Assembly (NCBI GenBank): GCA_964016885.1
Contig: OZ024744.1
Span: 21,328,001 to 21,392,000 of the forward strand
Direction of reading: 5' to 3'
DNA from: Eledone cirrhosa
Lineage: Eukaryota
Length of the DNA: 64,000 nucleotides
Shown here: positions 1 to 61,955 of the stretch, in pieces
How the letters are laid out: each line of letters starts with the position of its first letter
Position numbering within the stretch: the first letter of the stretch is position 1
Notes under the pieces: model-generated
The model's input: the letters and a program-made list of their open reading frames with translations, nothing else
Databases searched by the model: none
Told to the model about the DNA's origin: nothing
Program-made: the position numbers and the translations under genes

Positions 1-3000
1 CTGTTGCTTTCCACTTCAATTACTGTTTTCTACTCTTCAATTATTGTTGCTCTCATCTTTCAATTACTGTTGCTCTCATCTTTCAATTACTGTTGCTCTC
101 TTATTTCAATTACTGTTGCTCTCCTCTTTATTTACTGTTCCTCTCCTCTTCCACTACTATTGCTCCCCTCTTCCATTACTGTTGCTCTCCTCTCCCATTA
201 CTGATTCTCTCCTCTTTCAATTACTGTTGCTCTCCTCTTTCAATTACTGTTGCTCTCCTCGTTCAATTACTGTTGCTCTCCTTGTTCAATTACTGTTGCT
301 CTTCCCTTCAATTACTGTTGTTCTCCTCGTTCAATTACTGTTGCTCTCCTCTTCAATTACTGTTGCTCTCCTCTTCAATTACTGTTGCTCTCCTCTTCAA
401 TTACTGTTGCTCTCCTCGTTCAATTACTGTTGCTCTCAACCTCAATTACTGTTGCTCCCCTCTTCAATTGCTGTTGCTCTCCTCTTTCAATTACTGTTGC
501 TCTCCTCTTTCAATTACTGTTGCCCTCCTCTTCAATTACTATTTCTCTCCTCTTTCATATACTGCTGCTCTCCTCTTCAATTACTGTTGCTCTCCACTTC
601 AATTACTGTTGCTCTCCTCGTTCAATTAATGTTGCTCTCCTCCTCAATTACTATTCTCTCCTCTTTCAATTACTGTTGCTCTCCTCTTTCAATTAATGTT
701 GCTCTCCTCGTTCAATTACTGTTGCTCTCCTCGTTCAATTACTGTTGCTCTTCTCGTTCAATTACTGTTGCTCTTCTCTTCAATTACTGTTGCTCTCCTC
801 TTCAATTACTGTTGCTCTCCTCGTTCAATTACTGTTGCTCTCCTCCTCAATTACTGTTGCTCTCCTCTTCAATTATTGTTGCTCTCATCTTCAATTAATG
901 TTGCTCTCCTCTTCAATTACTGTTGCTCTCCTCTTCAATTACTGTTGCTCTCCTCTTTCAATTACTGTTGCTCTCCTCTTTCAATTACTGTTGCTCTCCT
1001 CTTCAATTACTGTTGCTCTCTTGTACAGTTACTCTTGCTCTCCTCGTTCAATTACTGTTGCTCTCCTCTTCAATTACTATTTCTCTCCTCTTTCAATTAC
1101 TGTTGCTCTCCTCGTTCAATTACTGTTGCTCTCCTCTTCAATTACTGTTGCTCTCCTCTTCAATTAATGTTGCTCTCCTCTTTCAATTACTGTAGCTCTC
1201 CTCGTTCAATTACTGTTGCTCTCCTCTTCAATTACTGTTGCTCTCCTCGTTCAATTACTGTTGCTCTCCTCGTTCAATTACTGTTGCTCTCCTCTTCAAT
1301 TACTATTTCTCTCCTCTTTCAATTACTGTTGCTCTCCTCGTTCAATTACTGTTGCTCTCCTCGTTCAATTACTTATGCTCTTCTCATCAATTACTGTTGC
1401 TCTCCTCGTTCAATTACTGTTGCTCTCCTCTTCAATTACTGTTGTTCTCCTCGTTCAATTACTGTTGCTCTCCTCTTTCAATTACTGTTGCTCTCCTCGT
1501 TCAATTACTGTTGCTCTCCTTGTTCAATTACTGTTGCTCTTCCCTTCAATTACTGTTGTTCTCCTCGTTCAATTACTGTTGCTTTCCACTTCAATTACTG
1601 TTTTCTACTCTTCAATTATTGTTGCTCTCATCTTTCAATTACTGTTGCTCTCATCTTTCAATTACTGTTGCTCTCTTATTTCAATTACTGTTGCTCTCCT
1701 CTTTATTTACTGTTGCTCTCCTCTTCCACTACTATTGCTCCCCTCTTCCATTACTGTTGCTCTCCTCTCCCATTACTGATTCTCTCCTCTTTCAATTACT
1801 GTTGCTCTCCTCTTTCAATTACTGTTGCTCTCCTCGTTCAATTACTGTTGCTCTCCTTGTTCAATTACTGTTGCTCTTCCCTTCAATTACTGTTGTTCTC
1901 CTCGTTCAATTACTGTTGCTCTCCTCTTCAATTACTGTTGCTCTTCTCTTCAATTACTGTTGCTCTCCTCTTCAATTACTGTTGCTCTCCTCGTTCAATT
2001 ACTGTTGCTCTCATCCTCAATTACTGTTGCTCCCCTCTTCAATTGCTGTTGCTCTCCTCTTTCAATTACTGTTGCTCTCCTCTTTCAATTACTGTTGCCC
2101 TCCTCTTCAATTACTATTTCTCTCCTCTTTCATATACTGCTGCTCTCCTCTTCAATTACTGTTGCTCTCCTCTTCAATTACTGTTGCTCTCCTCGTTCAA
2201 TTAATGTTGCTCTCCTCCTCAATTACTATTCTCTCCTCTTTCAATTACTGTTGCTCTCCTCTTTCAATTAATGTTGCTCTCCTCGTTCAATTACTGTTGC
2301 TCTCCTCGTTCAATTACTGTTGCTCTTTTCGTTCAATTACTGTTGCTCTTCCCTTCAATTACTGTTTTTCTCCTCGTTCAATTACTGTTGCTCTCCTCTT
2401 CAATTACTGTTGCTCTCCTCTTCAATTACTGTTGCTCTCCTCGTTCAATTACTGTTGCTCTCCTCCTCAATTACTGTTGCTCTCCTCTTCAATTATTGTT
2501 GCTCTCATATTCAATTAATGTTGCTCTCCTCTTCAATTACTGTTGCTCTCCTCTTCAATTACTGTTGCTCTCCTCTTCAATTAATGTTGCTCTCCTCTTT
2601 CAATTACTGTTGCTCTCCTCTTTCAATTAATGTTGCTCTCCTCGTTCAATTACTGTTGCTCTCCTCGTTCAATTACAGTTGCTCTTCTCGTTCAATTACT
2701 GTTGCTCTTCCCTTCAATTACTGTTTTTCTCCTCGTTCAATTACTGTTGCTCTCCTCTTCAATTACTGTTGCTCTCCTCTTCAATTACTGTTGCTCTCCT
2801 CGTTCAATTACTGTTGCTCTTCCCTTCAATTACTGTTTTTCTCCTCGTTCAATTACTGTTGCTCTCCTCTTCAATTACTGTTGCTCTCCTCGTTCAATTA
2901 CTGTTGCTCTCCTCCTCAATTACTGTTGCTCTCCTCTTCAATTATTGTTGCTCTACTCTTCAATTAATGTTGCTCTCCTCTTCAATTACTGTTGCTCTCC

Positions 3001-6000
3001 TCTTCAATTACTGTTGCTCTACTCTTCAATTAATGTTGCTCTCCTCTTTCAATTACTGTTGCTCTCCTCGTTCAATTACTGTTGCTCTCCTCTTCAATTA
3101 CTGTTGCTCTCCTCGTTCAATTACTGTTGCTCTCCTCTTCAATTACTGTTGTTCTCCTCGTTCAATTACTCTTGCTCTCCTCTTTCAATTACTGTTGCTC
3201 TCCTCTTTCAATTGATGTTGCTCTCCTCTTCAATTACTGTTGCTCTCTACTTCAATTACTGTTGCTCCCTTCAATTACTGTCGCTCTCCTCTTCAATTAC
3301 TGTGGCTCTCCTCATTCACTTACTGTTGCTCTCCATTTCTATTAATGTTGCTCTCTTCTTTGAATTACTGTTTCTCTGCTCTTCAATTGCTATTGCTCTC
3401 CTCTTACATTTTCTGGTCCTTTCCTCTTTCTATTAATGTTGCTCTCCTGTTTCAATTACTATTACTCTCCTCTTTCAATTACTGTTGCTCTCCTCTTCAA
3501 TTACTGTTGTTCTCCTCGTTCAATTACTGTTGCTCTCCTCTTTCAATTACTGTTGCTCTCCTCGTTCAATTACTGTTGCTCTCCTTGTTCAATTACTGTT
3601 GCTCTTCCCTTCAATTACTGTTGTTCTCCCCGTTCAATTACTGTTGCTCTCCTCTTCAATTAATGTCGCTCTCCACTTCAATTACTGTCGCTCTCCTCCT
3701 CAATTACTCTTGCACTCCTCTTTCAATTACTGTAGCCCTCCTCTTCAATTACTGTTGCTCTCCACTTCAATTACTGTTGCTTTCCACTTCAATTACTGTT
3801 TTCTACTCTTCAATGATTGTTGCTCTCATCTTTCAATTACTGTTGCTCTCATCTTTCAATTACTGTTGCTCTCTTCTTTCAATTACTGTTGCTCTCCTCT
3901 TTATTTACTGTTGCTCTCCTCTTCCACTACTATTGCTCCCCTCTTCCATTACTGTTGCTCTCCTCTCCCATTACTGATTCTCCCCTCTTTCAATTACTGT
4001 TGCTCTCCTCTTCAATTACTGTTGCGCTCCTATTCAATTACTGTTGCTCCACTCTTCAAATAATGTTTCTCTCCTCTTTCAATTACTGTTGCTCTCCTCT
4101 TCAATTACTGTAGCTTTCCTCTTTCAATTACTGTTGCTCTCCTCTTTCAATTACTGGTGCTCTCCTCTTCAATCACTGTTGCTCTCCTCGTTCAATTACT
4201 GCTGCTCTCCTCCGCAATTGCTTTTGCTCCCCTCTTCAATTGCTGTTGCTCTGCTCTTTCAATTACTGTTGCTCTCCTCGTTCAATTACTGTTGCTCTCC
4301 TCTTCAATTACAATTCTCTCCTCTTTCAATTATTGTTGCTCTCCTCTTCAATTACTGTTGCTCTCCTCTTCAATTACTGTTGCTCTCTTGTACAGTTACT
4401 CTTGCTCTCCTCGTTCAATTACTGTTGCTCTCCTCTTTCAATTACTGTTGCTCTCCTCGTTCAATTACTGTTGCTCTCCTCTTCAATTATTGTTGCTCTC
4501 CTCGTTCAATTACTGTTGCTCTCCTCGTTCAATTACTGTTGCTCTCCTCTTCAATTACTATTTCTCCTCTTTCAATTACTGTTGCTCTCCTCGTTCAATT
4601 CCTGTTGCTCTCCTCGTTCAATTACTGTTGCTCTCCTCGTCAATTACTGTTGCTCTTCTCGTTCAATTACTGTTGCTCTCCTCTTCAATTACTATTCTCT
4701 CCTCTTTCGAATTACTGTTGCTCTCCTCTTTCAATTACTGTTGCTATCCTCGTTCAATTACTGTTGCTCTCCTTGTTCAATTACTGTTGCTCTTCCCTTC
4801 AATTACTGTTGTTCTCCTCGTTCAATTACTGTTGCTCTCCTCTTCAATTACTCTTGCTCTCCTCTTCAATTACTGTTGCTCTCCTCTTCAAATAATGTTG
4901 CTCTCCTCTTCAATTACTCTTGCTCTCCTCGTTCAATTACTGTTGCTCTCCGCTTTCAATTACTGTTGCTCCCCTCTTCAATTGCTGTTGCTCTCCTCTT
5001 TCAATTACTGTTGCTCTCCTCTTTCAATTACTGTTGCCCTCCTCTTCAATTACTATTTCTCTCCTCTTTCATATACTGTTGCTCTCCACTTCAATTACTG
5101 TTGCTCTCCTCTTCAATTACTGTTGCTCTCCTCGTTCAATTACTGTTGCTCTCCTCCTCAATTACTATTCTCTCCTCTTTCAATTACTGTTGTTCTCCTC
5201 TTTCAATTAATGTTGCTCTCCTCGGTCAATTACTGTTGCTCTCCTCGTTCAATTACTGTTGCTCTTCTCGTTCAATTACTCTTGCTCTTCCCTTCAATTA
5301 CTGTTTTTCTCCTCGTTCAATTACTGTTGCTCTCCTCTTCAATTACTGTTGCTCTCCTCTTCAATTACTGTTGCTCTCCTCGTTCAATTACTGTTGCTCT
5401 CCTCCTCAATTACTGTTGCTCTCCTCTTCAATTATTGTTGCTCTCCTCTTCAATTAATGTTGCTCTCCTCTTCAATTACTGTTGCTCTCCTCTTCAATTA
5501 CTGTTGCTCTCCTCTTCAATTAATGTTGCTCTCCTCTTTCAATTACTGTTGCTCTCCTCGTTCAATTACTGTTGTTCTCCTCGTTCAATTACTGTTGCTT
5601 TCCACTTCAATTACTGTTTTCTACTCTTCAATTATTGTTGCTCTCATCTTTCAATTACTGTTGCTCTCATCTTTCAATTACTGTTGCTCTCTTATTTCAA
5701 TTACTGTTGCTCTCCTCTTTATTTACTGTTGCTCTCCTCTTCCACTACTATTGCTCCCCTCTTCCATTACTGTTGCTCTCCTCTCCCATTACTGATTCTC
5801 TCCTCTTTCAATTACTGTTGCTCTCCTCTTTCAATTACTGTTGCTCTCCTCGTTCAATTACTGTTGCTCTCCTTGTTCAATTACTGTTGCTCTTCCCTTC
5901 AATTACTGTTGTTCTCCTCGTTCAATTACTGTTGCTCTCCTCTTCAATTACTGTTGCTCTCCTCTTCAATTACTGTTGCTCTCCTCTTCAATTACTGTTG

Positions 6001-9000
6001 CTCTCCTCGTTCAATTACTGTTGCTCTCATCCTCAATTACTGTTGCTCCCCTCTTCAATTGCTGTTGCTCTCCTCTTTCAATTACTGTTGCTCTCCTCTT
6101 TCAATTACTGTTGCCCTCCTCTTCAATTACTATTTCTCTCCTCTTTCATATACTGCTGCTCTCCTCTTCAATTACTGTTGCTCTCCTCTTCAATTACTGT
6201 TGCTCTCCTCGTTCAATTAATGTTGCTCTCCTCCTCAATTACTATTCTCTCCTCTTTCAATTACTGTTGCTCTCCTCTTTCAATTAATGTTGCTCTCCTC
6301 GTTCAATTACTGTTGCTCTCCTCGTTCAATTACTGTTGCTCTTCTCGTTCAATTACTGTTGCTCTTCCCTTCAATTACTGTTTTTCTCCTCGTTCAATTA
6401 CTGTTGCTCTCCTCTTCAATTACTGTTGCTCTCCTCTTCAATTACTGTTGCTCTCCTCGTTCAATTACTGTTGCTCTCCTCCTCAATTACTGTTGCTCTC
6501 CTCTTCAATTATTGTTGCTCTCATCTTCAATTAATGTTGCTCTCCTCTTCAATTACTGTTGCTCTCCTCTTCAATTACTGTTGCTCTCCTCTTCAATTAA
6601 TGTTGCTCTCCTCTTTCAATTACTGTTGCTCTCCTCTTTCAATTACTGTTGCTCTTCTCTTCAATTACTGTTGCTCTCTTGTACAGTTACTCTTGCTCTC
6701 CTCGTTCAATTACTGTTGCTCTCCTCTTCAATTACTATTTCTCTCCTCTTTCAATTACTGTTGCTCTCCTCGTTCAATTACTGTTGCTCTCCTCTTCAAT
6801 TACAATTCTCTCCTCTTTCTATTATTGTTGCTCTCCTCTTCAATTACTGTTGCTCTCCTCTTCAATTACTGTTGCTCTCTTGTACAGTTACTCTTGCTCT
6901 CCTCGTTCAATTACTGTTGCTCTCCTCTTTCAATTACTGTTGCTCTCCTCGTTCAATTACTGTTGCTCTCCTCTTCAATTATTGTTGCTCTCCTCGTTCA
7001 ATTACTGTTGCTCTCCTCGTTCAATTACTGTTGCTCTCCTCTTCAATTACTATTTCTCCTCTTTCAATTACTGTTGCTCTCCTCGTTCAATTCCTGTTGC
7101 TCTCCTCGTTCAATTACTGTTGCTCTCCTCGTCAATTACTGTTGCTCTTCTCGTTCAATTACTGTTGCTCTCCTCTTCAATTACTATTCTCTCCTCTTTC
7201 GAATTACTGTTGCTCTCCTCTTTCAATTACTGTTGCTATCCTCGTTCAATTACTGTTGCTCTCCTTGTTCAATTACTGTTGCTCTTCCCTTCAATTACTG
7301 TTGTTCTCCTCGTTCAATTACTGTTGCTCTCCTCTTCAATTACTCTTGCTCTCCTCTTCAATTACTGTTGCTCTCCTCTTCAAATAATGTTGCTCTCCTC
7401 TTCAATTACTGTTGCTCTCCTCGTTCAATTACTGTTGCTCTCCGCTTTCAATTACTGTTGCTCCCCTCTTCAATTGCTGTTGCTCTCCTCTTTCAATTAC
7501 TGTTGCTCTCCTCTTTCAATTACTGTTGCCCTCCTCTTCAATTACTATTTCTCTCCTCTTTCATATACTGTTGCTCTCCTCTTCAATTACTGTTGCTCTC
7601 CTCTTCAATTACTGTTGCTCTCCTCGTTCAATTACTGTTGCTCTCCTCCTCAATTACTATTCTCTCCTCTTTCAATTACTGTTGCTCTCCTCTTTCAATT
7701 AATGTTGCTCTCCTCGGTCAATTACTGTTGCTCTCCTCGTTCAATTACTGTTGCTCTTCTCGTTCAATTACTCTTGCTCTTCCCTTGAATTACTGTTTTT
7801 CTCCTCGTTCAATTACTGTTGCTCTCCTCTTCAATTACTGTTGCTCTCCTCTTCAATTACTGTTGCTCTCCTCGTTCAATTACTGTTGCTCTCCTCCTCA
7901 ATTACTGTTGCTCTCCTCTTCAATTATTGTTGCTCTCCTCGTCAATTAATGTGGCTCTCCTCTTCAATTACTGTTGCTCTCCTCTTCAATTACTGTTGCT
8001 CTCCTCTTCAATTAATGTTGCTCTCCTCTTTCAATTACTGTTGCTCTCCTCGTTCAATTACTGTTGCTCTCCTCTTCAATTACTGTTGCTCTCCTCGTTC
8101 AATTACTGTTGCTCTCCTCGTTCAATTACTGTTGCTCTCCTCTTCAATTACTATTTCTCTCCTCTTTCAATTACTGTTGCTCTCCTCGTTCAATTACTGT
8201 TGCTCTCCTCGTTCAATTACTTATGCTCTTCTCATCAATTACTGTTGCTCTCCTCGTTCAATTACTGTTGCTCTCCTCTTCAATTACTGTTGTTCTCCTC
8301 GTTCAATTACTGTTGCTCTCCTCTTTCAATTACTGTTGCTCTCCTCGTTCAATTACTGTTGCTCTCCTTGTTCAATTACTGTTGCTCTTCCCTTCAATTA
8401 CTGTTGTTCTCCTCGTTCAATTACTGTTGCTTTCCACTTCAATTACTGTTTTCTACTCTTCAATTATTGTTGCTCTCATCTTTCAATTACTGTTGCTCTC
8501 ATCTTTCAATTACTGTTGCTCTCTTATTTCAATTACTGTTGCTCTCCTCTTTATTTACTGTTGCTCTCCTCTTCCACTACTATTGCTCCCCTCTTCCATT
8601 ACTGTTGCTCTCCTCTCCCATTACTGATTCTCTCCTCTTTCAATTACTGTAGCTCTCCTCTTTCAATTACTGTTGCTCTCCTCGTTCAATTACTGTTGCT
8701 CTCCTTGTTCAATTACTGTTGCTCTTCCCTTCAATTACTGTTGTTCTCCTCGTTCAATTACTGTTGCTCTCCTCTTCAATTACTGTTGCTCTCCTCTTCA
8801 ATTACTGTTGCTCTCCTCTTCAATTACTGTTGCTCTCCTCGTTCAATTACTGTTGCTCTCATCCTCAATTACTGTTGCTCCCCTCTTCAATTGCTGTTGC
8901 TCTCCTCTTTCAATTACTGTTGCTCTCCTCTTTCAATTACTGTTGCCCTCCTCTTCAATTACTATTTCTCTCCTCTTTCATATACTGCTGCTCTCCTCTT

Positions 9001-12000
9001 CAATTACTGTTGCTCTCCTCTTCAATTACTGTTGCTCTCCTCGTTCAATTAATGTTGCTCTCCTCCTCAATTACTATTCTCTCCTCTTTCAATTACTGTT
9101 GCTCTCCTCTTTCAATTAATGTTGCTCTCCTCGTTCAATTACTGTTGCTCTCCTCGTTCAATTACTGTTGCTCTTCTCGTTCAATTACTGTTGCTCTTCC
9201 CTTCAATTACTGTTTTTCTCCTCGTTCAATTACTGTTGCTCTCCTCTTCAATTACTGTGGCTCTCCTCTTCAATTACTGTTGCTCTCCTCGTTCAATTAC
9301 TGTTGCTCTCCTCCTCAATTACTGTTGCTCTCCTCTTCAATTATTGTTGCTCTCATCTTCAATTAATGTTGCTCTCGTCTTCAATTACTGTTGCTCTCCT
9401 CTTCAATTACTGTTGCTCTCCTCTTCAATTAATGTTGCTCTCCTCTTTCAATTACTGTTGCTCTCCTCTTTCAATTAATGTTGCTCTCCTCGTTCAATTA
9501 CTGTTGCTCTCCTCGTTCAATTACTGTTGCTCTTCTCGTTCAATTACTGTTGCTCTTCCCTTCAATTACTGTTTTTCTCCTCGTTCAATTACTGTTGCTC
9601 TCCTCTTCAATTACTGTTGCTCTCCTCTTCAATTACTGTTGCTCTCCTCGTTCAATTACTGTTGCTCTTCCCTTCAATTACTGTTTTTCTCCTCGTTCAA
9701 TTACTGTTGCTCTCCTCTTCAATTACTGTTGCTCTCCTCGTTCAATTACTGTTGCTCTCCTCCTCAATTACTGTTGCTCTCCTCTTCAATTATTGTTGCT
9801 CTACTCTTCAATTAATGTTGCTCTCCTCTTCAATTACTGTTGCTCTCCTCTTCAATTACTGTTGCTCTCCTCTTCAATTAATGTTGCTCTCTTCGTTCAA
9901 TTACTGTTGCTCTCCTCTTCAATTACTGTTGCTCTCCTCGTTCAATTACTGTTGCTCTCCTCTTCAATTACTGTTGTTCTCCTCGTTTAATTACTCTTGC
10001 TCTCCTCTTTCAATTACTGTTGCTCTCCTCTTTCAATTGATGTTGCTCTCCTCTTCAATTACTGTTGCTCTCTACTTCAATTACTGTTGCTCCCTTCAAT
10101 TACTGTCGCTCTCCTCTTCAATTACTGTGGCTCTCCTCATTCACTTACTGTTGCTCTCCATTTCTATTAATGTTGCTCTCTTCTTTGAATTACTGTTTCT
10201 CTGCTCTTCAATTGCTATTGCTCTCCTCTTACATTTTCTGGTCCTTTCCTCTTTCTATTAATGTTGCTCTCCTGTTTCAATTACTATTACTCTCCTCTTT
10301 CAATTACTGTTGCTCTCCTCTTCAATTATTGTTGCTCTCCTCTTCAATTACTGTTGACCTGCTCTTCAATTACTGTTGCTCTCCTCTTCAATTACTCTTG
10401 TTTTCCTCTTTCAATTACTGTTGCTGTCCTTATCAATTAATTGTTGCTGTTCTCTTCAATTACTGTTGCTCTCCTCCTCAATTACTGTTGCTCACTTTTT
10501 CAATTAATGTCGCTCTCCTCTTTCACTTACTGTTGCTCTCCATTTCTATTAATGTTGCTCTCTTCTTTCAATTATTGTTGCTCTCCACTTCAATTACTGT
10601 TGCTCTCCTCTTCAATTACTGTTGCTCTCCTCTTCAATTACAATTGCTCTCCTCTATAAATTACCGTTGCTCTCCTCTTTCAATTACTATTGCTCTCTTT
10701 TTCAATTACTGTTGCTCTCATCTTCAATTAATGTTGCTCTCCTCTTCAATTATTGTTGCTCTCCTCTTAATTTACTGTCGCTCTCCTCTTCAATTACTGT
10801 TGCTCTCCACTTCAATTACTGCTGCTCTCCTCTTCAATTACTGTTGCTCTCTACTTCAATTACTGTTTCTCTCCACTTTCAGTTATTGTTGCTCTCCTCT
10901 TCAATTAATGTTGCTCTCCACTTCAATTACTGTTGCTCTCCTCCTCAAATACTGTTGCTCTCCTCTTCAATTACTGTTGCTCTCCTCTTTCAATTACTGT
11001 TGCTCTCTTCTTTCAATTAATGTTTCTCTATCTTCATTTACAGTAGCCCTCCTCTTTCAAATGCTGTAGCTCTCCACTTCAATTACTGTTGCTCTCCTCT
11101 TCAATTACTGTTCCTCTCCTCTTTAATTACTCTTGCACTCCTCGTTCAATTACTGTTGCTCTCCTCTTCAATTACTGTTGCTCTCCTCTTCAATTATTGT
11201 TGCTCTCATCTTCAATTAATGTTGCTCTCCTCTTCAATTACTGTTGCTCTCCTCTTCAATTATTGTTGCTCTCATCTTCAATTAATGTTGCTCTCCTATT
11301 CAATTACTGTTGCTCTCCTCTTCAATTACTGTTGCTCTCCTCTTCAATTAATGTTGCTCTCCTCTTTCAATTACTGTTGCTCTCCTCGTTCAATTACTGT
11401 TGCTCTTCTCGTTCAATTACTGTTGCTCTTCCCTTCAATTACTGTTTTTCTCCTCGTTCAATTACTGTTGCTCTCCTCTTCAATTACTGTTGCTCTCCTC
11501 TTCAATTACTGTTGCTCTCCTCGTTCAATTACTGTTGCTCTCCTCCTCAATTACTGTTGCTCTCCTCTTCAATTATTGTTGCTCTCCTCTTCAATTAATG
11601 TTGCTCTCCTCTTCAATTACTGTTGCTCTCCTCTTCAATTACTGTTGCTCTCCTCTTCAATTAATGTTGCTCTCCTCTTTCAATTACTGTTGCTCTCCTC
11701 GTTCAATTACTGTTGCTCTCCTCTTCAATTACTGTTGCTCTCCTCGTTCAATTACTGTTGCTCTCCTCGTTCAATTACTTATGCTCCTCTCATCAATTAC
11801 TGTTGCTCTCCTCGTTCAATTACTGTTGCTCTCCTCTTCAATTACTGTTGTTCTCCTCGTTCAATTACTCTTGCTCTCCTCTTTCAATTACTGTTGCTCT
11901 CCTCTTTCAATTGATGTTGCTCTCCTCTTCAATTACTGTTGCTCTCTACTTCAATTACTGTTGCTCTCTTCAATTACTGTCGCTCTCCTCTTCAATTACT

Positions 12001-15000
12001 GTGGCTCTCCTCTTTCACTTACTGTTGCTCTCCATTTCTATTAATGTTGCTCTCTTCTTTGAATTACTGTTTCTCTGCTCTTCAATTACTATTGCTCTCC
12101 TCTTACATTTTCTGGTCCGTTCCTCTTTCTATTAATGTTGCTCTCCTGTTTCAATTACTATTACTCTCCTCTTTCAATTACTGTTGCTCTCCTCTTCAAT
12201 TACTGTTGCTCTCCTCTTCAATTACTGTTGACCTGCTCTTCAATTACTGTTGCTCTCTTTCATTTACTATTGCTCTCCTCTTCAATTACTGTTGTTTTCC
12301 TCTTTCAATTACTGTTGCTGTCCTTCTCAATTAATTGTTGCTGTCCTCTTCAATTACTGTTGCTCTCCTCCTCAATTATTGTTGCTCACTTCTTCAATTA
12401 ATGTCGCTCTCCTCTTTCACTTACTGTTGCTCTTCATTTCTATTAATGTTGCTCTCTTCTTTCAATTATTGTTGCTCTCCACTTCAATTACTGTTGCTCT
12501 CCTCGTTCAATTACTGTTGCTCTCCTCTTCAATTACTGTTGCTCTCCTCGTTCAATTACTGTTGCTCTCCTCGTTCAATTACTTATGCTCCTCTCATTAA
12601 TTACTGTTGCTCTCCTCGTTCAATTACTGTTGCTCTCCTCTTCAATTACTGTTGTTCTCCACGTTCAATTACTCTTGCTCTCCTCTTTCAATTACTGTTG
12701 CTCTCCTCTTTCAATTGATGTTGCTCTCCTCTTCAATTACTGTTGCTCTCTACTTCAATTACTGTTGCTCTCTTCAATTACTGTCGCTCTGCTCTTCAAT
12801 TACTGTGGCTCTCCTCTTTCACTTACTGTTGCTCTCCATTTCTATTAATGTTGCTCTCTTCTTTGAATTACTGTTTCTCTGCTCTTCAATTACTATTGCT
12901 CTCCTCTTACATTTTCTGGTCCTTTCCTCTTTCTATTAATGTTGCTCTCCTGTTTCAATTACTATTACTCTCCTCTTTCAATTAGTGTTGCTCTCCTCTT
13001 CAATTACTGTTGCTCTCCTCTTCAATTACTGTTGACCTGCTCTTCTATTACTGTTGCTCTCTTTCAATTACTATTCCTCTCCTCTTCAATTACTGTTGTT
13101 TTCCTCTTTCAATTACTGTTGCTGTCCTTCTCAATTAATTGTTGCTGTCCTCTTCAATTACTGTTGCTCTCCTCCTCAATTACTGTTGCTCACTTCTTCA
13201 ATTAATGTCGCTCTCCTCTTTCACTTACTGTTGCTCTCCATTTCTATTAATGTTGCTCTCTTCTTTCAATTATTGTTGCTCTCCACTTCAATTACTGTTG
13301 CTCTCCTCTTCAATTACTGTTGCTCTCCTCTTCAATTACATTTGCTCTCCTCTATAAATTACCGTTGCTCTCCTCTTTCAATTACTATTGCTCTCTTTTT
13401 CAATTACTGTTGCTCTCCTATTCAATTAATGTTGCTCTCCTCTTCAATTATTGTTGCTCTCCTCTTAATTTACTGTCGCTCTCCTCTTCAATTACTGTTG
13501 CTCTCCACTTCAATTACTGTCGCTCTCCTCCTCAATTACAATTGCTATTTTCCTCAATTACTGCTGCTCTCCTCTTCAATTACTGTTGCTCTCTACTTCA
13601 ATTACTGTTTCTCTCCTCTTTCAGTTATTGTTGCTCTCCTCTTCAATTAATGTTGCTCTCCACTTCAATTACTGTCGCTCTCCTCCTCAAATACTGTTGC
13701 TCTCCTCTTCAATTACTGTTGCTCTCCTCTTTCAATTACTGTTGCTCTCTTCTTTCAATTAATGTTTCTCTATCTTCAATTACTGTAGCCCTCCTCTTTC
13801 AAATGCTGTAGCTCTCCACTTCAATTACTGTTGCTCTCCTCTTCAATTACTGTTGCTCTCCTCTTTAATTACTCTTGCACTCCTCTTCAATTACTGTTGC
13901 TCTCCTCTTTCAATTACAGTTGCTCTCCTCTTCAATTACTGTTGCTCTCCTCCTTCTTTTACTGTTGTTTTCCTCTTTCAATTACTGTTGCTGTCCTTCT
14001 CAATTAATTGTCGCTCTCCTCTTAAATTACTGTTGCTCTCCTCCTCAATTACGGTTGCTCTCTTCTTCAATTAATGTCGCTCTGTTTTTCAATTAATGTT
14101 GCTCTACACTTCAATTACTGTCGCTCTCCTCCTCAATTACTGTTGCTCTCCTCCACAGTTACTGTTGCTCTCCTCTTAAATTACTGTTGCTCCCCTCCTT
14201 CAATTACTTTTGAGCTCTTCTTTCAATTACTGTTGCTCTCCTCTTTCAATTAATGTTGCTCTGCTTTTCAATTACTGTTGCTCTATTCTTTCAATTACTG
14301 TTGCTCTCCTCTTTCAATTGCTGTTGCTCTCCTCTTCAATTACTCTTGCTCTCTTCAATTACTGTTGCTCTCCTCTTCAATTACTGTTGCTCTCCTCTTC
14401 AATTACTATTGCTCTCCTCTTTCACTTACTGTTCTCTCCATTTCTATTAATGTTGCTCTCTTCTTTCAATTAATGTTGCTCTCCTCTTCAATTATTGTTG
14501 CTCTCCTCTTAAATTACTGTCGCTCTCCTCTCCAATTACTGTTGCTCTCCACTTAAATTTCTGTCGCTCTCCTCCTCAATTACTGTTGCTCTTTTCCTCA
14601 ATTACTGTTGCTCTCCTCTTCAATTACTGTTGCTCTCTACTTCAATTACTGTTTCTCTCCTCTTTCAGTTACTATTGCTCTCCTCTTCAATTATTGTTGC
14701 TCTACACTTCAATTACTGTCGCTCTCCTCCTCAATTACTGTTGCTCTCCTCTTCAATTACTGTTGCTCTCCTCTTTCAATTACTGTTCCTCGCCTCTTTC
14801 AATTACTGTTGCTCTCCTCTTTCAATTACTGTTGCTCTCTTCTTTCAATTACTGTTGCTCTCCTCCTCAATTACTGTTCCTCTCCTCTTCAATTACTGTT
14901 GCTCTTCTCCTTCAATTACTGATGACCTCTTCTTTCAATTACTGTTGCTCTCCTCTTTCAATTAATGTTGCTCTCCTCTTTCAATTAATGTTGCTCTCTT

Positions 15001-15030
15001 CTTCAATTACTGTTGCTCTCCTCTTTTCAA
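1..15030 (+). repeat. Satellite array, unit CAATTACTGTTGCTCTCCTCTT (22 bp) with 23-bp variants (..CTCGTT / ..CTCTTT), continuing off the left window edge
   Basis: Direct tandem periodicity throughout. Diagnostic variant blocks recur, e.g. GCTTTCCACTTCAATTACTGTTTTCTACTC near 6, 1581, 3779, 5597, 8429. All ORFs 4-15050 are translations of this unit. Confidence 0.99.
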
Positions 15031-24560: not shown

Positions 24561-24799
24561 GCGAAATGTGGTTTATGTCTTAATAAAGAAAAAAAAATGG
24601 GTTCTTATTCCTTTTTTTTTTTTTTTTTTGTCATTCATGATGCTCAAGCTTATTTGATGAATGGTTTTCGTACCTTATGGTTGTTTGATGCTGCTAAATT
24701 ATGTTTACTGACATCCATCATACGTTTGTAATTAATTGGGAACAAAAGTGATGGACATTCACTAATTATATAGTATCATACATACATCATATATATATG

Positions 24800-24980
24800 A
24801 GTCTGGAACTAGCTATTGAAATGGCAAGAGTTCAGCCGTCGGGAACTAGCAGTTAAAATGCAAGAGCTAGCCATTTGTCCCGAAACTTGATAATATAACC
24901 ATACTCTACTATCCCAAGTATTGAGTACTCTGTTGAGTAATGGTCTAACTAGTTTCAAACTGAATCCATCCTGATTTATA
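24800..24980 (+). mobile_element. Penelope-like pLTR fragment carrying the 3' half of a hammerhead (family of 34052 and 61786)
   Basis: GAAA-TGGC-loop-GCCG-TC at 24818-24840, followed by the shared CTCTACT...AGTATTGAGTACTCTG.TG.GTA.TGGTC motif. Confidence 0.6.
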
Positions 24981-26119: not shown

Positions 26120-29100
26120 AGTATAGAACAGAATATATACACACAACACTATATAATATATACACAGCACTATATAATATATACACAGCACTATAGAATA
26201 TATACGCACAGCACTATATAATATATACACAGCACTATAGAATATATACACACAGAACTATATAATATATATACACAGCACTATATAATATATACACAGC
26301 ACTATAGAATATATACACACCACACTATAGAATATATATACACATCACTATAGAATATATACACACAGCACAATATAATATATATACACGGCACTATATA
26401 ATATATACACAGCACTATAGAATATATACACACAGCACTATAGTATATATATACACAACACTATAGAATATATACACACAGCACTATGAATATACACACC
26501 GCACTATAGAATATATATAAACAGCACTATAGAATATATACACACAGCACTATAGAAGATATACACACAGCACTATAGAATATATACACAGCACTATAGA
26601 ATATATACACACAGCACTATAAAATATATACACAGCACTATAGAATATATACACACATCACTATAGAATATATACACAGCACTATAGAAGATCTACACAC
26701 ATCACTATATAATATACACACAGCACTATAGAATATATACACACAGCACCATAGAATATATACACACAGCACTGTAGAATAATACACTGAGCACTATAGA
26801 ATATTTATACACAACACTATATAATATACGCAAAGCACTATATAATATATACACACAACACTATAGAATATATACACACAGCACTATAGAATATATACAA
26901 ATAACACTATATAATATATACACACAGCACTATATAATATACACACAGCACTATAGAATATATACACACAGCACTATAGAATATATACACACAGCACTAT
27001 AGAATATATATACACAGCACTATAGAATATATACACACAACACTATAGAATATATACACAACACTATAGAATATATACACACAGCACTATAGAATATATA
27101 CACACAGCACTATAGAATATATATACACAGCACTATAGAATATATACACACAACACTATATAATATACACACAGCACTATAGAATATATACACACAGCAC
27201 TATAGAATATATACACACAGCACTAAAGAATATATACACACATCACTATTGAATATATACACACAGCACTATAGAATATATACACAGCTCTATAGAATAT
27301 ATACACACAACACTATATACTATATACACAAAGCACTATTGAATATATACACACAGCACTATCGAATATATACACAGCACTATAGAATACATACACACAA
27401 AACAATATAATATATACACACAGCACTATTGAAAATATACACACAACACTATAGAATATATACAGAGCACTATAGAATATATACACACAGCACTATAGAA
27501 TATATACACACAACACTATAGAATATATACACAGAGCACTATAGAATATATACATACAGCACTATATAATATATACACACAACACTATATCATATATACA
27601 CACAGCACTATAGAATATATACACACAGCACTATAGAATATATACACACAACACTATAGAATATATAGACACAACACTATATAATATATACACACAGCAC
27701 AATAGAATATATACACACAATACTATATACTATATACACACAGCACTATAGAATATATACACACAACACTATAGAATATATAGACACACAACACTATATA
27801 ATATATACACACAGCACTATAGAATATATACACACAGCACTATAGAATATATAGACACGCAACGCTATATAATATATACACACAGCACTATAGAATATAT
27901 ACACACAGCACTATATAATATACACATCACTATATAAGATATACACACAGAACGATAGAATATATACACACAGCTCTATAGAATATATACACACAGCATT
28001 ATAGAATATATACACACAGCATTATAGAATATATACACACAACACTATAGAATATATACACAGCACTATAGAATATATACACACAGCACTACACATCACT
28101 ATAGAATATATACACACAGCATTATAGAATATATACACACAGCACTAGATAATATATACACACAGCACTATAGAATATATACACACAGCACTATAGAATA
28201 TATACACAGCACTATAGAATATTATCACACAACAATGTAGAATATATACACACAACACTATTGAATATATACACACAGCACTATAGAATATATACACACA
28301 GCACTATATAATATACACACAGCACTATAGAATATATACACACAGCACTATATAATATACACAGCACTATAGAATATATACACACATCACTATAGAATAT
28401 ATACACAGCACTATAGAATATATACACACACCACTATATAATATATACACACACCACTATATAATATATATACACAGCACTGTAGAATATATACACACAA
28501 TACTATAGAATATATATAATCACAGCACTATATAATATATACACACAGCACTGTAGAATAATACACTGAGCACTATAGAATTTTTACACACAACACTATA
28601 TAATATACACACAGCACTATATAATATATACACACAGCACTATAGAATATATACACACAGCACCATATAATATATACACACAGCACTATAGAATATATAT
28701 ACACAGCACTATATAATATATACACACAACACTATAGAATATATACACATAGCACTATAGAACATATATACACAACACTATAGAATATATACACACAACA
28801 CTATTGAATATATACACACAGCACTATATAATGTATACACACAACACTATAGAATATATACACAGCACTATAGAATATATACACACAGCACTATATAATA
28901 TATACACACTGCACTATAGAATATATACACGCAGCACTATAGAATATATATACACAACACTATATAATATACACACAGCACTATCGAATATATATACACA
29001 CCACTATAGAATATATACACACAGCAATATAGAATATATACACACAGCACTATATAATATATACACACAGCACTATAGAATATATACACGCAGCACTATA

Positions 29101-30040
29101 GAATATATATACACAACACTATATAATATACACACAGCACTATCGAATATATATACACAACACTATAGAATATATACACAACACTATAGAATATATACAC
29201 ACAACACTATAGAATATATACACAGCACTATAGAATATATACACACAGCACTATATAGTATATACACACAGCACTATAGAATATATACACGCAGCACTAT
29301 AGAATATATATACACAACACTATATAATATACACACAGCACTATCGAATATATATACACAACACTATAGAATATATACACACAGCAATATAGAATATATA
29401 CCCACTGCACTATAGAATATATACACACAACACTATAGAATATATAGACAGCACAATAGAGTATATACACAGAAATATAGAATATATACACACAGCACTA
29501 TAGAATATATACACACAGCACTATAGAATATATAGACAGCACTATATAATATACACACAGCACTATGGAATATATACACACAGCACTATAGAATATAAAG
29601 ACAACACTATATAATATATACACATCACTATAGAATATATACACGCAGCACTATAGAATATATACACATCACTATAGAATATATACACACAGCACTATAT
29701 AATACATACACAGCACTATAGAATATATACACACAGTACTATCGAATATATACACACAACACTATAGAATATATACACACAGTACTATAGAATATATACA
29801 CAGCACTATAGAATATATATACACTGCACTATACAATATATACAAGCAGCACTGTAAAATATATACACACAACACTATAGAATATATATACACAGCACTA
29901 TATAATATACACACAGCACTATATAATATATACACACAGCACTATAGAATATATGCACAACACTATATAATATATACACAGCACTATAGAATATACATAT
30001 ATACAGCACTGTGTCGAATATATACACACAACACTGTATT
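26120..30040 (+). repeat. Satellite array, unit (CA)2-3GCACTATAGAATATATA (21-23 bp)
   Basis: Direct tandem periodicity over about 3.9 kb. Local block duplications carry a CACGCAGC...CTATCGAA marker at about 28928, 29087 and 29288. Confidence 0.98.
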
Positions 30041-34051: not shown

Positions 34052-34260
34052 ATAGGAGAAGGTATGACCCCGACGTCAGAGCTGAAGCCATTTCGACGGC
34101 TATTTCTGGACTAAAGCCTTTAGTCCAGAAATAGCCGTCGAAACGGCTTCAGCTCTGCCGTCGAGGTCATACTTTCTCCTATTACCCACTCTACTACGCT
34201 AAGTATTGAGTACTCTGGTGCGGTATGGTCCATCTGGTTCCTTACCACAATTCCTTCGTT
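34052..34260 (+). mobile_element. Penelope-like pLTR fragment with 5' foldback palindrome and hammerhead 3' half
   Basis: Palindrome 34052-34182 centred on 34117. GAAA-CGGC-loop-GCCG-TC at 34140-34162, followed by the shared downstream motif. Confidence 0.7.
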
Positions 34261-41333: not shown

Positions 41334-41580
41334 TTAGCTTGGGCTGTCAGGTTGTGTCCATGTGGAGAATGTACACCTTCTCTGGTGTTTGCTCGTCATG
41401 ATAATCTCCGATTTCAGGTTGACCGCATCATTGTTCAATCTGACTATCTCCATGGCCTCGGATAGGCATAGCCTACACTTCCTATTTCCAGCTGAATATG
41501 CATTTGCATGTTAAACGATACTCCAGTTGAGATCATAGGGGGTGCCATTGTCTTTCAAGTCCCATATTACTCCGCCAGCC
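41334..41580 (-). pseudogene. Penelope-like element (Neptune-type) GIY-YIG endonuclease C-terminus
   Basis: IWDLKDNGTPYDLNWSIV*HANAYSAGNRKCRLCLSEAMEI...VNLKSEIIMTSKH matches the IWxLK...WSI...Y....CxLCLxE...LNxRSE...CRH signature. Confidence 0.82.
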
Positions 41581-42177: not shown

Positions 42178-42305
42178 TATTTATATACATATACATATAC
42201 ATATATATATATATGTGTGTGTATGTGTGTGTGCGTGTGTGTGTATCCCGGGTTAAATCGGAGGTAACCACAGCAAGGTACTTAATACATAGCAAAGTGT
42301 AAATG

Positions 42306-42426
42306 TTTAATATAGAAATGGCTTCTACAGGACTAGAACTGTTTCATTCGAAGGAAATCATCAGTAAAGAACTGATGATTTCCTTCGAATCAAACAGTTC
42401 TAGTCCTGTAGAAGCCATTTCTATAT

Positions 42427-42430
<4 letters not shown>
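42306..42430. repeat. Near-perfect palindrome (60-bp arms, 5-bp spacer) with a hammerhead-like CTGATGA..GAAA at its centre
   Basis: Arms 42306-42365 and 42371-42430 with one mismatch. Confidence 0.9.
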
Positions 42431-47600: not shown

Positions 47601-47709
<109 letters not shown>

Positions 47710-48000
47710 AAAACTATATTTATAAAACAATATTTATTTTATTATACATATTTCAAGGGCAACCAAGGCAAATTATGGTGCGCTTTCATCAGATAAAATA
47801 CAGATTTGATTTATAAATAAATATTGGCATACCCGGAAAAAACTCCAACCTTAACGGTTGGAGTTTCCTGGATAGTGTTGAGTGCTTTATACAGTTATAA
47901 AAATGTTTCAGCTTGTTAAATCCCAACAAATTAAATATAACCTCTGCATATATATATATATATATATATAGTAATAATAATAAATGTATGTGTCTGTGTC

Positions 48001-61114: not shown

Positions 61115-61138
<24 letters not shown>

Positions 61139-61146
<8 letters not shown>

Positions 61147-61760
61147 AATGTGATATAAAATGGTATAAAATGTGAAAAATGAAGAATAAAAATAAATACG
61201 TAAAACGAGTAAAAAGAGTAAAAATGTGCGAAGAATATTTAAACATATTAAAATTATTGAGAATGGTTTTTGAGAATTGTTGAAATATATGGAGAGATAA
61301 TAAGGTAAAAATATGATAATGTTAAATATATTTATGTGTATATTGGTTATTTTAATAAATAAATAAATTAATTAGTTTTAAGTTATCAAATAACAATATC
61401 AAAACCTCTTATATTTACATTCTTATTTTATATATCTCTATTTTTCACTCTTTATCTTTATATTTCTCTCCCTGAATTTATTTCATCTGTCATTTTATTT
61501 TATCATATAATATATCTTAAAACTAATTTATTTATTTATTTATTAAAATAACCAATACACACATAAATATATTTAACATTATCATATGTTCACCTTATTA
61601 TCTCTCCATATATTTCAACAATTCTCAAAAACCATTCTCAATAATTTTAATATGTTTAAATATTCTTCGCACATTTTTACTCTTCTTACTCCTTTTACGT
61701 ATTTATTTTTATTCTTCATTTTTCACATTTTATACCATTTTATATCACATTAGATATAAC
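61139..61760. repeat. AT-rich long inverted repeat (~245-bp arms, ~130-bp spacer)
   Basis: 61139-61385 is reverse-complementary to 61515-61760 with few differences. Confidence 0.92.
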
Positions 61761-61785
61761 TTATTTAGATATAACTTATAAAAGG

Positions 61786-61955
61786 TCAGGACCCCGGCCA
61801 TATCAACAGCTAGATCCGAACGGATCTAGCTGTTGAAACGGCCGTGTTTCTCCGTCGGGGTCCTGAATTTTTCATATTACCCACTCTACTAGCTTGAGTA
61901 TTGAGTACTCTGGTGAGTAATGGTCTAACTGGTTTTTACCGCCTCCATTCTGATA
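61786..61955 (+). mobile_element. Penelope-like pLTR fragment with foldback palindrome and hammerhead 3' half
   Basis: Hairpin AACAGCTAGATCCG-AA-CGGATCTAGCTGTT, GAAA (61835-38), CGG..CCG, TC (61855-56), followed by the shared downstream motif. Confidence 0.7.

What the first reader, a model, noticed from the sequence alone, without database searches (positions are those of the whole stretch)
34052..34260. Candidate mechanism: hammerhead stem II as the foldback primer for inverted 5' ends of retroelement insertions
Seen: here and at 61786-61955, two diverged members of one family keep the 3' half of a hammerhead (GAAA, paired stem III, GUC). The symmetry axis of each palindrome lies in the hairpin directly 5' of GAAA, which is the stem II position. 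Where CUGANGA should be there is an inverted copy of the ribozyme's 3' half. The two hairpins differ in sequence, so these are independent events. Inference: nascent cDNA copying stem II folds back and self-primes, generating the inverted pLTR and disabling the ribozyme in one step. Inverted pLTRs and PLE hammerheads are each known; I do not know of this positional link being described.
Basis: partly seen in the sequence, partly recalled or inferred. Interest (0 to 1): 0.8.

Follow-up and report, generated by a model that had tools for sequence, protein, structure and literature searches.

The report
Penelope palindromes mark a transcript start
These two palindromes are short back-to-back copies of a Penelope-like jumping gene, and most sampled copies end at one spot inside its ribozyme that is likely the capped start of its RNA rather than a fold-back hairpin, which would help explain how this poorly understood class of elements inserts.

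Summary
Both palindromes are real. Each is a head-to-head pair of 5'-truncated ends of a Hydra-type Penelope-like element in (TA)n, one arm with an ~80-nt tail and one without. Long copies carry a full type I hammerhead (core UUGANAA in family A, mostly CUGANGA in family B) and link to an RT/GIY-YIG ORF.

The junctions cluster, but not at the stem II loop. In 147 family-A insertions (264 arms), arm starts pile up at the A of an invariant AGT 18 nt before GAAA: 42 of 86 arms that reach it stop there, against about 1% per base elsewhere. Only 2 of 117 inverted junctions fit stem II pairing, and six have non-overlapping arms. Solo copies without an inverted partner start at the same base, 31 of 47 with an extra G (controls 1 of 9).

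Best reading: the edge is likely a capped transcription start. Two separately primed cDNAs likely run off this RNA end and are joined, often after short local snap-back. Stem II foldback is not supported as the rule. No RNA data were available.

The parts
34052..34116 (-). Inverted, tail-less arm of family A pLTR (element positions -4 to about +61), joined to (TA)n on the left
34117..34117 (.). 1-nt spacer at the palindrome axis; natural stem II loop absent
   Evidence: natural loop
34118..34260 (+). Forward, tailed arm of family A pLTR, ending in (TA)n; 88-89% like the pLTR of full-length unit L338
34120..34125 (+). Initiator-like hexamer; its A (34122, '+1') is the family-wide edge of 5' truncation and the inferred capped start
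   Evidence: the initiator consensus is recalled
34129..34166 (+). 3' half of type I hammerhead: stem II outer 3' strand, GAAA 34140-34143, stem III, cleavage triplet 34160-34162, stem I 3' strand
34180..34260 (+). ~80-nt 'tail' between the two main 3' ends (inferred RT start sites); in full-length units it runs on into the ORF leader
61780..61821 (-). Inverted tail-less arm of family B (reaches +2; 13-nt internal deletion)
61822..61953 (+). Forward tailed arm of family B (starts at +5/+6; GAAA 61835, triplet 61854-61856), ending in (TA)n
24799..24974 (+). Third relative: a solo copy with no inverted arm that starts exactly at +1 (24800), with a G between it and (TA)n

Best explanation
Each locus is a head-to-head pair of short 5'-truncated copies of a Hydra-type Penelope-like element in (TA)n, likely made from two separately primed cDNAs that ran off the likely capped 5' end of the element's RNA, which is predicted to lie inside hammerhead stem II. 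Steps: (1, inferred) Pol II starts at the A of an initiator-like motif 18 nt before GAAA, so the RNA begins without the 5' half of the ribozyme. (2, shown in vitro for another PLE, inferred here) the endonuclease nicks both strands of a (TA)n target and each nick primes RT internally at one of two sites about 80 nt apart, giving a tail-less and a tailed cDNA. (3, inferred from the edge and the extra G) priming in the 5' copy of the pLTR gives ~60- and ~140-nt run-off cDNAs that end at the cap. (4, inferred from junction sequences) the two cDNA 3' ends are joined with small losses, short microhomology or short snap-back copies of their own ends. Loss of the ribozyme is thus a by-product of where transcription starts, not of folding on stem II.
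For: Edge: of arms reaching a position, 42 of 86 start at +1 and 80 of 241 at -1..+2, against 65 of 7432 at +8..+41 and 4 of 403 at -13..-45 (147 unique insertions from 160 loci). Family B: 45 of 76 arms start in -2..+10, 3 of 76 at -5 or beyond. AGT at +1..+3 is invariant in 17 long copies of both families while the loop beside it varies. Solo copies on (TA)n starting at +1: G 31, A 9, C 7 of 47. Background after the same repeat is A 35767, G 1688, C 222. Controls starting at +12 and +4 give G in 1 of 9 (Fisher p=0.003). An extra G marks capped full-length L1 5' junctions (PMC11702581). Two cDNAs: 108 of 117 pairs are tail-less plus tailed; the tail-less arm is longer in 63, the tailed in 35, equal in 10. 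Six pairs have arms that do not overlap (L171, L193, L204, L215, L238, L250). The two ends are about equally common, 4815 vs 4642 exact matches. In vitro, a PLE protein nicks and extends both strands from two RNA sites that define the tail (PMC11167929). L342 is a full-length unit that starts at about -3 with an inverted partner; L364 starts at about +1 and runs 218 nt into the ORF leader. Snap-back: 21 of 27 inserts of 5 nt or more copy +1..+41 sequence (6.7 expected from shuffles).
Against: No RNA run holds the element, so the start site is not observed. Of about 20 copies that run through the ORF side, only L348 (=L342) starts near +1. Nearly all others keep the whole upstream ribozyme, so longer or tandem templates are common. 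Locus 1 itself has both arms at -4, past +1. In inverted junctions the base before +1 is G 23, C 18, A 1 (T cases are scored as start -1, 13 arms), and most of those G's can also be read as partner or snap-back sequence. The control sets for the extra G are small and used a slightly shorter (TA) run. A 1-nt remnant of a partner arm could supply some G's. In D. virilis Penelope the mapped start lies upstream of an intron whose 3' end abuts the ribozyme (PMC2377424, PMC4209133), a different geometry. Arms from different subfamilies were not clearly shown: 8 of 70 were discordant, compatible with later point mutation.
Confidence: 0.62

Rival explanations
1. One reading: one nascent cDNA copies through the stem II loop into the 5' strand, folds back on the natural stem and self-primes, making the inverted arm.
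For: Junctions do cluster in the stem II region. Natural stem II is long. L036 and L070 keep the natural loop with a crossover inside the stem, as does L004 in the query-biased first set.
Against: The longer arm reaches -12 or beyond in only 6 of 117 pairs, and only 2 fit stem pairing. In both the loop sits on the tail-less arm, which cannot template the tail. 28 of 102 junctions have a 0-2 nt spacer at an innermost palindrome (crude measure). Non-overlapping arms and solo copies share the edge. An unrelated family has its edge just 5' of the core.
Confidence: 0.05
2. One cDNA runs to the RNA end, snaps back on a tiny 3-6 nt loop, copies itself, and the hairpin is resolved by the endonuclease at fixed sites; no second priming is needed.
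For: Recurrent junction classes (+1,+7) 7 times and (+1,+5) 5 times, and templated inverted inserts. Snap-back after full-length cDNA is described for R2 proteins (PMC11371274). Self-priming and endonuclease resolution were proposed for PLEs (PMC3846280, PMC8557442).
Against: It cannot give non-overlapping arms, nor a tail on the shorter arm when the tail-less arm is longer (63 of 108). Three-part junctions such as L032, L037, L060 and L227 show a snap-back piece plus a second arm. It probably operates as a sub-step of joining.
Confidence: 0.14
3. Two cDNAs are joined, but the +1 edge is not a transcription start: it is an RT stall at structure or bound protein, an RNA cut, or a DNA cut by the element's own endonuclease at an ATT-like site.
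For: In subfamilies A1 and A2 the edge lies in the inner helix of stem II. An ATT or similar motif precedes +1 in many copies, and a PLE endonuclease prefers ATT (PMC11167929). Most ORF-bearing copies extend upstream of +1.
Against: There is no excess stopping at the base of the conserved outer helix (about 1% per base at +8..+20). The inner helix is poorly conserved while AGT is invariant. A stall or cut does not predict an extra G specific to +1.
Confidence: 0.12
4. The short copies are themselves transcribed from the retained internal promoter and spread in trans like a SINE, so recurrent junctions reflect a few master copies.
For: Thousands of short copies; recurrent identical junctions.
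Against: Junctions are diverse, and the recurrent class occurs in both orientations and in several subfamilies. Some +1 arms continue into the ORF leader. This reading still needs a start at +1.
Confidence: 0.07

Closest known systems
Hydra clade of C-terminal-endonuclease Penelope-like elements (Craig et al. 2021, PMC8557442; section 11 and passages read)
   Same: Single RT plus C-terminal GIY-YIG ORF with DKT, RW(R/K), CxCX5C linker, CxxC and CxH; (TA)n targets; hammerhead in the pLTR; inverted 5'-truncated copy; optional tail.
   Different: Unit 3572 nt (paper: generally <3 kb) and tail ~80 nt (paper: 30-40 bp for PLEs). Family A has a U3-A8 core. A fixed truncation edge with extra G is not mentioned in what I read.
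Anolis Poseidon PAc in vitro (Frangieh et al. 2024, PMC11167929; main text parts 1-2 of 4 read, supplements searched without hits)
   Same: Two internal RT start sites define the tail; both strands are nicked and extended; AT-rich targets; ribozyme cleavage is not needed.
   Different: The paper does not map the RNA 5' end or explain the inverted junction; its ORF starts in stem II, here it starts ~230 nt after +1.
PLE hammerheads (Cervera and De la Pena 2014, PMC4209133; parts 1-2 of 4 read)
   Same: Type I fold in the pLTR, U3-A8 variant (Schistosoma), palindromic loop III, motif pairs on opposite strands 100-700 bp apart.
   Different: Here stem II is ~50 nt with an internal loop and stem III is a full 5-bp helix; most short copies lack the 5' half.
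Self-priming model for PLE palindromes (Arkhipova et al. 2013, PMC3846280; passages read)
   Same: Head-to-head inverted repeats with palindromes at the junction.
   Different: That model needs self-priming on an antisense template; the data here favour two sense-templated cDNAs, with snap-back only as a joining step.
L1 twin priming, cap-derived extra G, and R2 snap-back junctions (10.1101/2024.12.14.628481, PMC11702581, PMC11371274; passages read; the original twin-priming paper is recalled)
   Same: Second-strand nick primes a second cDNA that ends up inverted; G at capped full-length 5' junctions; snap-back after full-length cDNA.
   Different: In L1 the second primer lands at variable internal sites and the two parts mostly do not overlap (recalled). 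Here both priming sites are fixed and both cDNAs usually copy the same ~60 nt, giving a palindrome.

Membership tests
Type I hammerhead ribozyme | Core Y-U-G-A-N-R-A with a 3-8 pair | tested here: met
   55 of 69 candidate upstream regions fit; 53 are U3-A8 and N7 takes all four bases (the rest are mostly inverted partners or deletions). In 17 aligned A and B copies the pair is UA 8, CG 6, UG 2, other 1.
Type I hammerhead ribozyme | Stems I, II, III around GAAA and NUH | tested here: met
   87% of cells paired against 29-61% for slid controls; covariation 0.223, 0 of 500 shuffles (related sequences, so not a probability). The lowest-energy fold of L145 is the three-way junction but z is only -1.57.
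Type I hammerhead ribozyme | Self-cleavage after GUC | not testable with these tools
   Needs an assay. Only 5 of 264 arms start at +42, so there is no clear pile-up at the cut site (that position is also the edge of the search pattern).
Penelope-like element (EN+) | RT plus C-terminal GIY-YIG ORF between direct pLTRs | tested here: met
   L338 and L340 are pLTR-ORF-pLTR; a 720-aa ORF with YRDD and YIG motifs read by eye. Pfam gave no hit; 1467 homologues at up to 53% identity, essentially unnamed.
Penelope-like element (EN+) | Inverted 5'-truncated copy and optional tail | tested here: met
   117 of 147 insertions have an inverted partner; 108 pair a tailed with a tail-less arm.
Hydra clade | DKT, RWK, CxCX5C linker, CxxC/CxH near the end, no CCHH, (TA)n targets | tested here: met
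   SDKTG, RWR (K to R), CNCPDRSIC, CNLC and CKH are in the translation; 166 of 175 tail ends abut TA repeats.
Hydra clade | Phylogenetic placement with Repbase Hydra RTs | not tested
   No reference Hydra proteins were in hand; no tree was built.
Stem II foldback model | Longer arm retains the natural loop and crosses over in the stem | tested here: not met
   2 of 117 pairs (L036, L070), both with the loop on the tail-less arm.
Capped Pol II start at +1 | Sharp edge, initiator-like motif, extra G | tested here: met
Capped Pol II start at +1 | RNA 5' ends observed at +1 | not testable with these tools
   No RNA holder listed.

The most novel reading that the evidence does not exclude
In this PLE lineage the promoter fires inside the hammerhead, so the mRNA's 5' copy is born as half a ribozyme and keeps its cap. 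The enigmatic inverted pLTRs are 'strong-stop'-like run-off cDNAs primed on both target strands. The genome's thousands of junctions would then be a fossil map of PLE transcription starts, readable in any species, and the terminal repeat from +1 to the tail could serve for a retrovirus-like strand transfer that makes long and tandem copies.
Probability: 0.4. Interest if true: 0.75.

Novelty: new variant of a known kind. Interest (0 to 1): 0.52.

Why it matters
How Penelope-like elements make their inverted and tandem ends is still open; the 2024 in vitro paper leaves the later steps unvalidated. If the reading holds, genome sequence alone locates the RNA 5' end and favours two-strand priming over self-priming. 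It also gives a reason why a ribozyme-bearing mRNA is not decapped. Each point is directly testable by 5' mapping and by an in vitro assay. Ten library searches did not surface this link, but several key PLE papers were not read.

Tried and rejected
Rfam scan of the window: no hammerhead among the 150 matches shown, only microsatellite-driven miRNA hits. Window-wide inverted-repeat search was swamped by microsatellites. The first genome search used a query spanning the junction, so it is biased; its 36 loci were left out of all distribution counts. An apparent GAGG/GGGG difference between arms in that set largely disappeared in the tail-only sample and was put down to selection by the query. 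Chimeric-arm test inconclusive, 8 of 70. No RNA holder listed. Laying two contig runs of unrecorded kind showed a large depth step in the bin containing +1, but summed contig depth is not a copy number, so it is not used. Pfam found nothing in the element ORFs or their top homologues; the RT/GIY-YIG hits belong to a different neighbouring element in L071. A splice-acceptor reading of the edge was set aside because arms keep the AG and share no upstream exon. One regex scan returned zero rows through a pattern error and was redone. Thirteen duplicate loci were removed, far-upstream low-complexity partner calls were discarded, and two partners (L215, L040) were set by eye; a few real partners of other subfamilies were missed and counted as solo. 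L243 was dropped from the non-overlap list as an internal deletion. Earlier-findings look-ups returned nothing.

Full report
Observation. The palindromes at 34052-34182 and 61780-61872 exist as described, and their forward arms are 78% alike over 109 nt. Each sits in (TA)n. The left arm ends about 20 nt after the cleavage triplet; the right arm runs about 80 nt further. A third relative at 24800-24974 has no inverted arm. The window is G000:C28:21328001-21392000 of a 3.0-Gb genome. Its repeats look cephalopod-like from recall; this was not tested.

The element. Long family-A copies share 1.4-1.6 kb upstream with L002, which carries the end of a GIY-YIG ORF (six loci). L338 and L340 are pLTR-ORF-pLTR units. 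In L338 the repeat period is 3572 nt and a 720-aa ORF starts about 230 nt after +1. The protein has SDKTG, RWR, YRDD, a CxCX5C linker, YIG, CxxC and CxH. These are the features listed for the Hydra clade of Penelope-like elements, which also target (TA)n (PMC8557442 section 11). No tree was built.

The ribozyme is real by sequence. Family A long copies read UUGA-N-AA with N7 taking all four bases (53 U3-A8 among 55 cores). Family B copies read mostly CUGA-N-GA. On 17 aligned copies the 3-8 pair is UA 8, CG 6, UG 2, other 1, and 87% of stem cells pair against 29-61% for slid controls. The U3-A8 variant is published for Schistosoma PLEs (PMC4209133). Natural stem II is about 50 nt: a conserved outer helix, an internal loop, a weak inner helix and a variable loop. 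Cleavage was not tested.

Where the junctions lie. I sampled family A without reference to the junction: the first 90 of 4815 exact matches to the tail-less end, the first 30 of 4642 to the tailed end, and the 40 scored hits to the tail. After removing 13 duplicates, 147 insertions remained, 117 with an inverted partner, 264 arms in all. Take the A of the invariant AGT, 18 nt before GAAA, as +1. Arm starts number 42 at +1, 25 at +2, 80 at +3..+10, 13 at -1, 9 at -2..-4, 7 at -5..-12 and 4 at -13..-45. Of arms that reach +1, 42 of 86 stop there, against about 1% per base at +8..+41 and at -13..-45. Family B shows the same edge: 45 of 76 arms start in -2..+10 and 3 at -5 or beyond. Genome-wide, 9234 exact matches reach +1 and 3418 continue three natural bases further (the patterns differ slightly).

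Test of stem II foldback. The model needs a cDNA that passes through the loop and pairs with the 5' strand. The longer arm reaches -12 or beyond in 6 of 117 pairs. Two of them (L036, L070) fit stem pairing, and in both the loop is on the tail-less arm, which cannot template the tail. Among 108 tail-less plus tailed pairs the tail-less arm is longer in 63, the tailed in 35 and equal in 10. Six pairs have arms with no overlap, yet four of them still start between -4 and +2. Solo copies with no partner start at +1 too. An unrelated hammerhead family, with a member at window 42245-42429, has its edge a few bases 5' of CUGAUGA: by eye the longer arm passes the core in 9 of about 18 pairs and stops within about 8 nt. 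The stem II position is therefore family-specific.

What the edge likely is. The motif at -2..+3 is YY-AGT in 62 of 69 candidate regions and resembles a Pol II initiator (recalled). Among solo copies joined to (TA)5T at +1, the intervening base is G in 31 of 47, A in 9 and C in 7. After the same repeat in fetched DNA, G makes up 4.5% of A/C/G. Starts at +12 and +4 show G in 1 of 9 (p=0.003). An extra G is the reported mark of capped full-length L1 5' junctions (PMC11702581). D. virilis Penelope has an internal Inr/DPE promoter in its pLTR region (PMC2377424), though upstream of the ribozyme. L342 is a full-length unit starting at about -3 with an inverted partner, and L364 starts at about +1 and enters the ORF leader. 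Against this: no RNA data exist here; nearly all other ORF-bearing copies keep the whole upstream ribozyme; locus 1 overshoots to -4; and in inverted junctions the G at -1 (23 of 42) is confounded with partner sequence.

Mechanism. A purified PLE protein nicks and extends both target strands and starts reverse transcription at two internal RNA sites that define the tail (PMC11167929). Applied here (inference), priming at about +60 and +140 in the 5' pLTR copy gives two short run-off cDNAs, one on each strand, whose 3' ends are joined. Joining often involves local snap-back: 21 of 27 inserts of 5 nt or more copy the element's first 41 nt (6.7 expected), and the commonest clean classes have 4- and 6-nt spacers next to +1. 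Snap-back after full-length cDNA is described for R2 proteins (PMC11371274). Sequence alone cannot tell intra- from intermolecular pairing at any single junction.

Novelty. Inverted pLTRs, tails, PLE hammerheads, the U3-A8 core and a self-priming proposal (PMC3846280) are all published. I did not find the fixed edge, the extra G or a start site inside the ribozyme in ten searches of the held library or in the passages read. Also seen as passages only, without bearing on the edge: 10.64898/2026.07.22.740005, 10.1101/2024.12.14.628481, PMC13282606, PMC10018344, PMC12029980. Older PLE papers and most supplements were not seen.

Verdict. Observation partly confirmed; stem II foldback not supported as the rule (0.05); two run-off cDNAs ending at a likely capped start inside stem II (0.62). 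New variant of a known kind; interest 0.52.

Noticed in passing
window 42245-42429: Head-to-head pair of a different hammerhead-bearing family (short stem II, canonical core) in (TA)n; both arms keep the core and the axis lies just 5' of it. About 50 arms of this family occur in fetched flanks.
   Followed up: partly
window 47700-47870 (minus strand): Solo copy of yet another abundant family with a CUGAUGA core and GAAA; its arms usually extend 60-90 nt upstream of the core.
   Followed up: partly
window 41367-41576 (minus strand): Fragment 40% like the C-terminal end of the element's endonuclease (tblastn E 3e-13).
   Followed up: no
window 61126-61772: 261-nt inverted repeat, 96% complementary, 125 nt apart, directly left of locus 2; possibly a MITE or another inverted insertion.
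   Followed up: no
window 1-15025 and 26130-30035: Long tandem arrays: a 22/23-nt unit over 15 kb (about 670 copies) and a 23-nt unit over 3.9 kb.
   Followed up: no
L354, L356, L357, L359, L364, L374: Copies ending about 100-120 or about 220 nt past the tail inside the ORF leader, suggesting further RT start sites; L359/L366/L367 form a tandem array of a 273-nt unit.
   Followed up: no
L071:5174-6568: A separate Penelope-type ORF (weak RVT_1 and GIY-YIG hits) near the L002 copy.
   Followed up: no
L108/L109/L110 and L350/L351/L370-L373: Near-identical insertions with shared flanks, i.e. segmental duplications that inflate similarity-ranked samples.
   Followed up: partly
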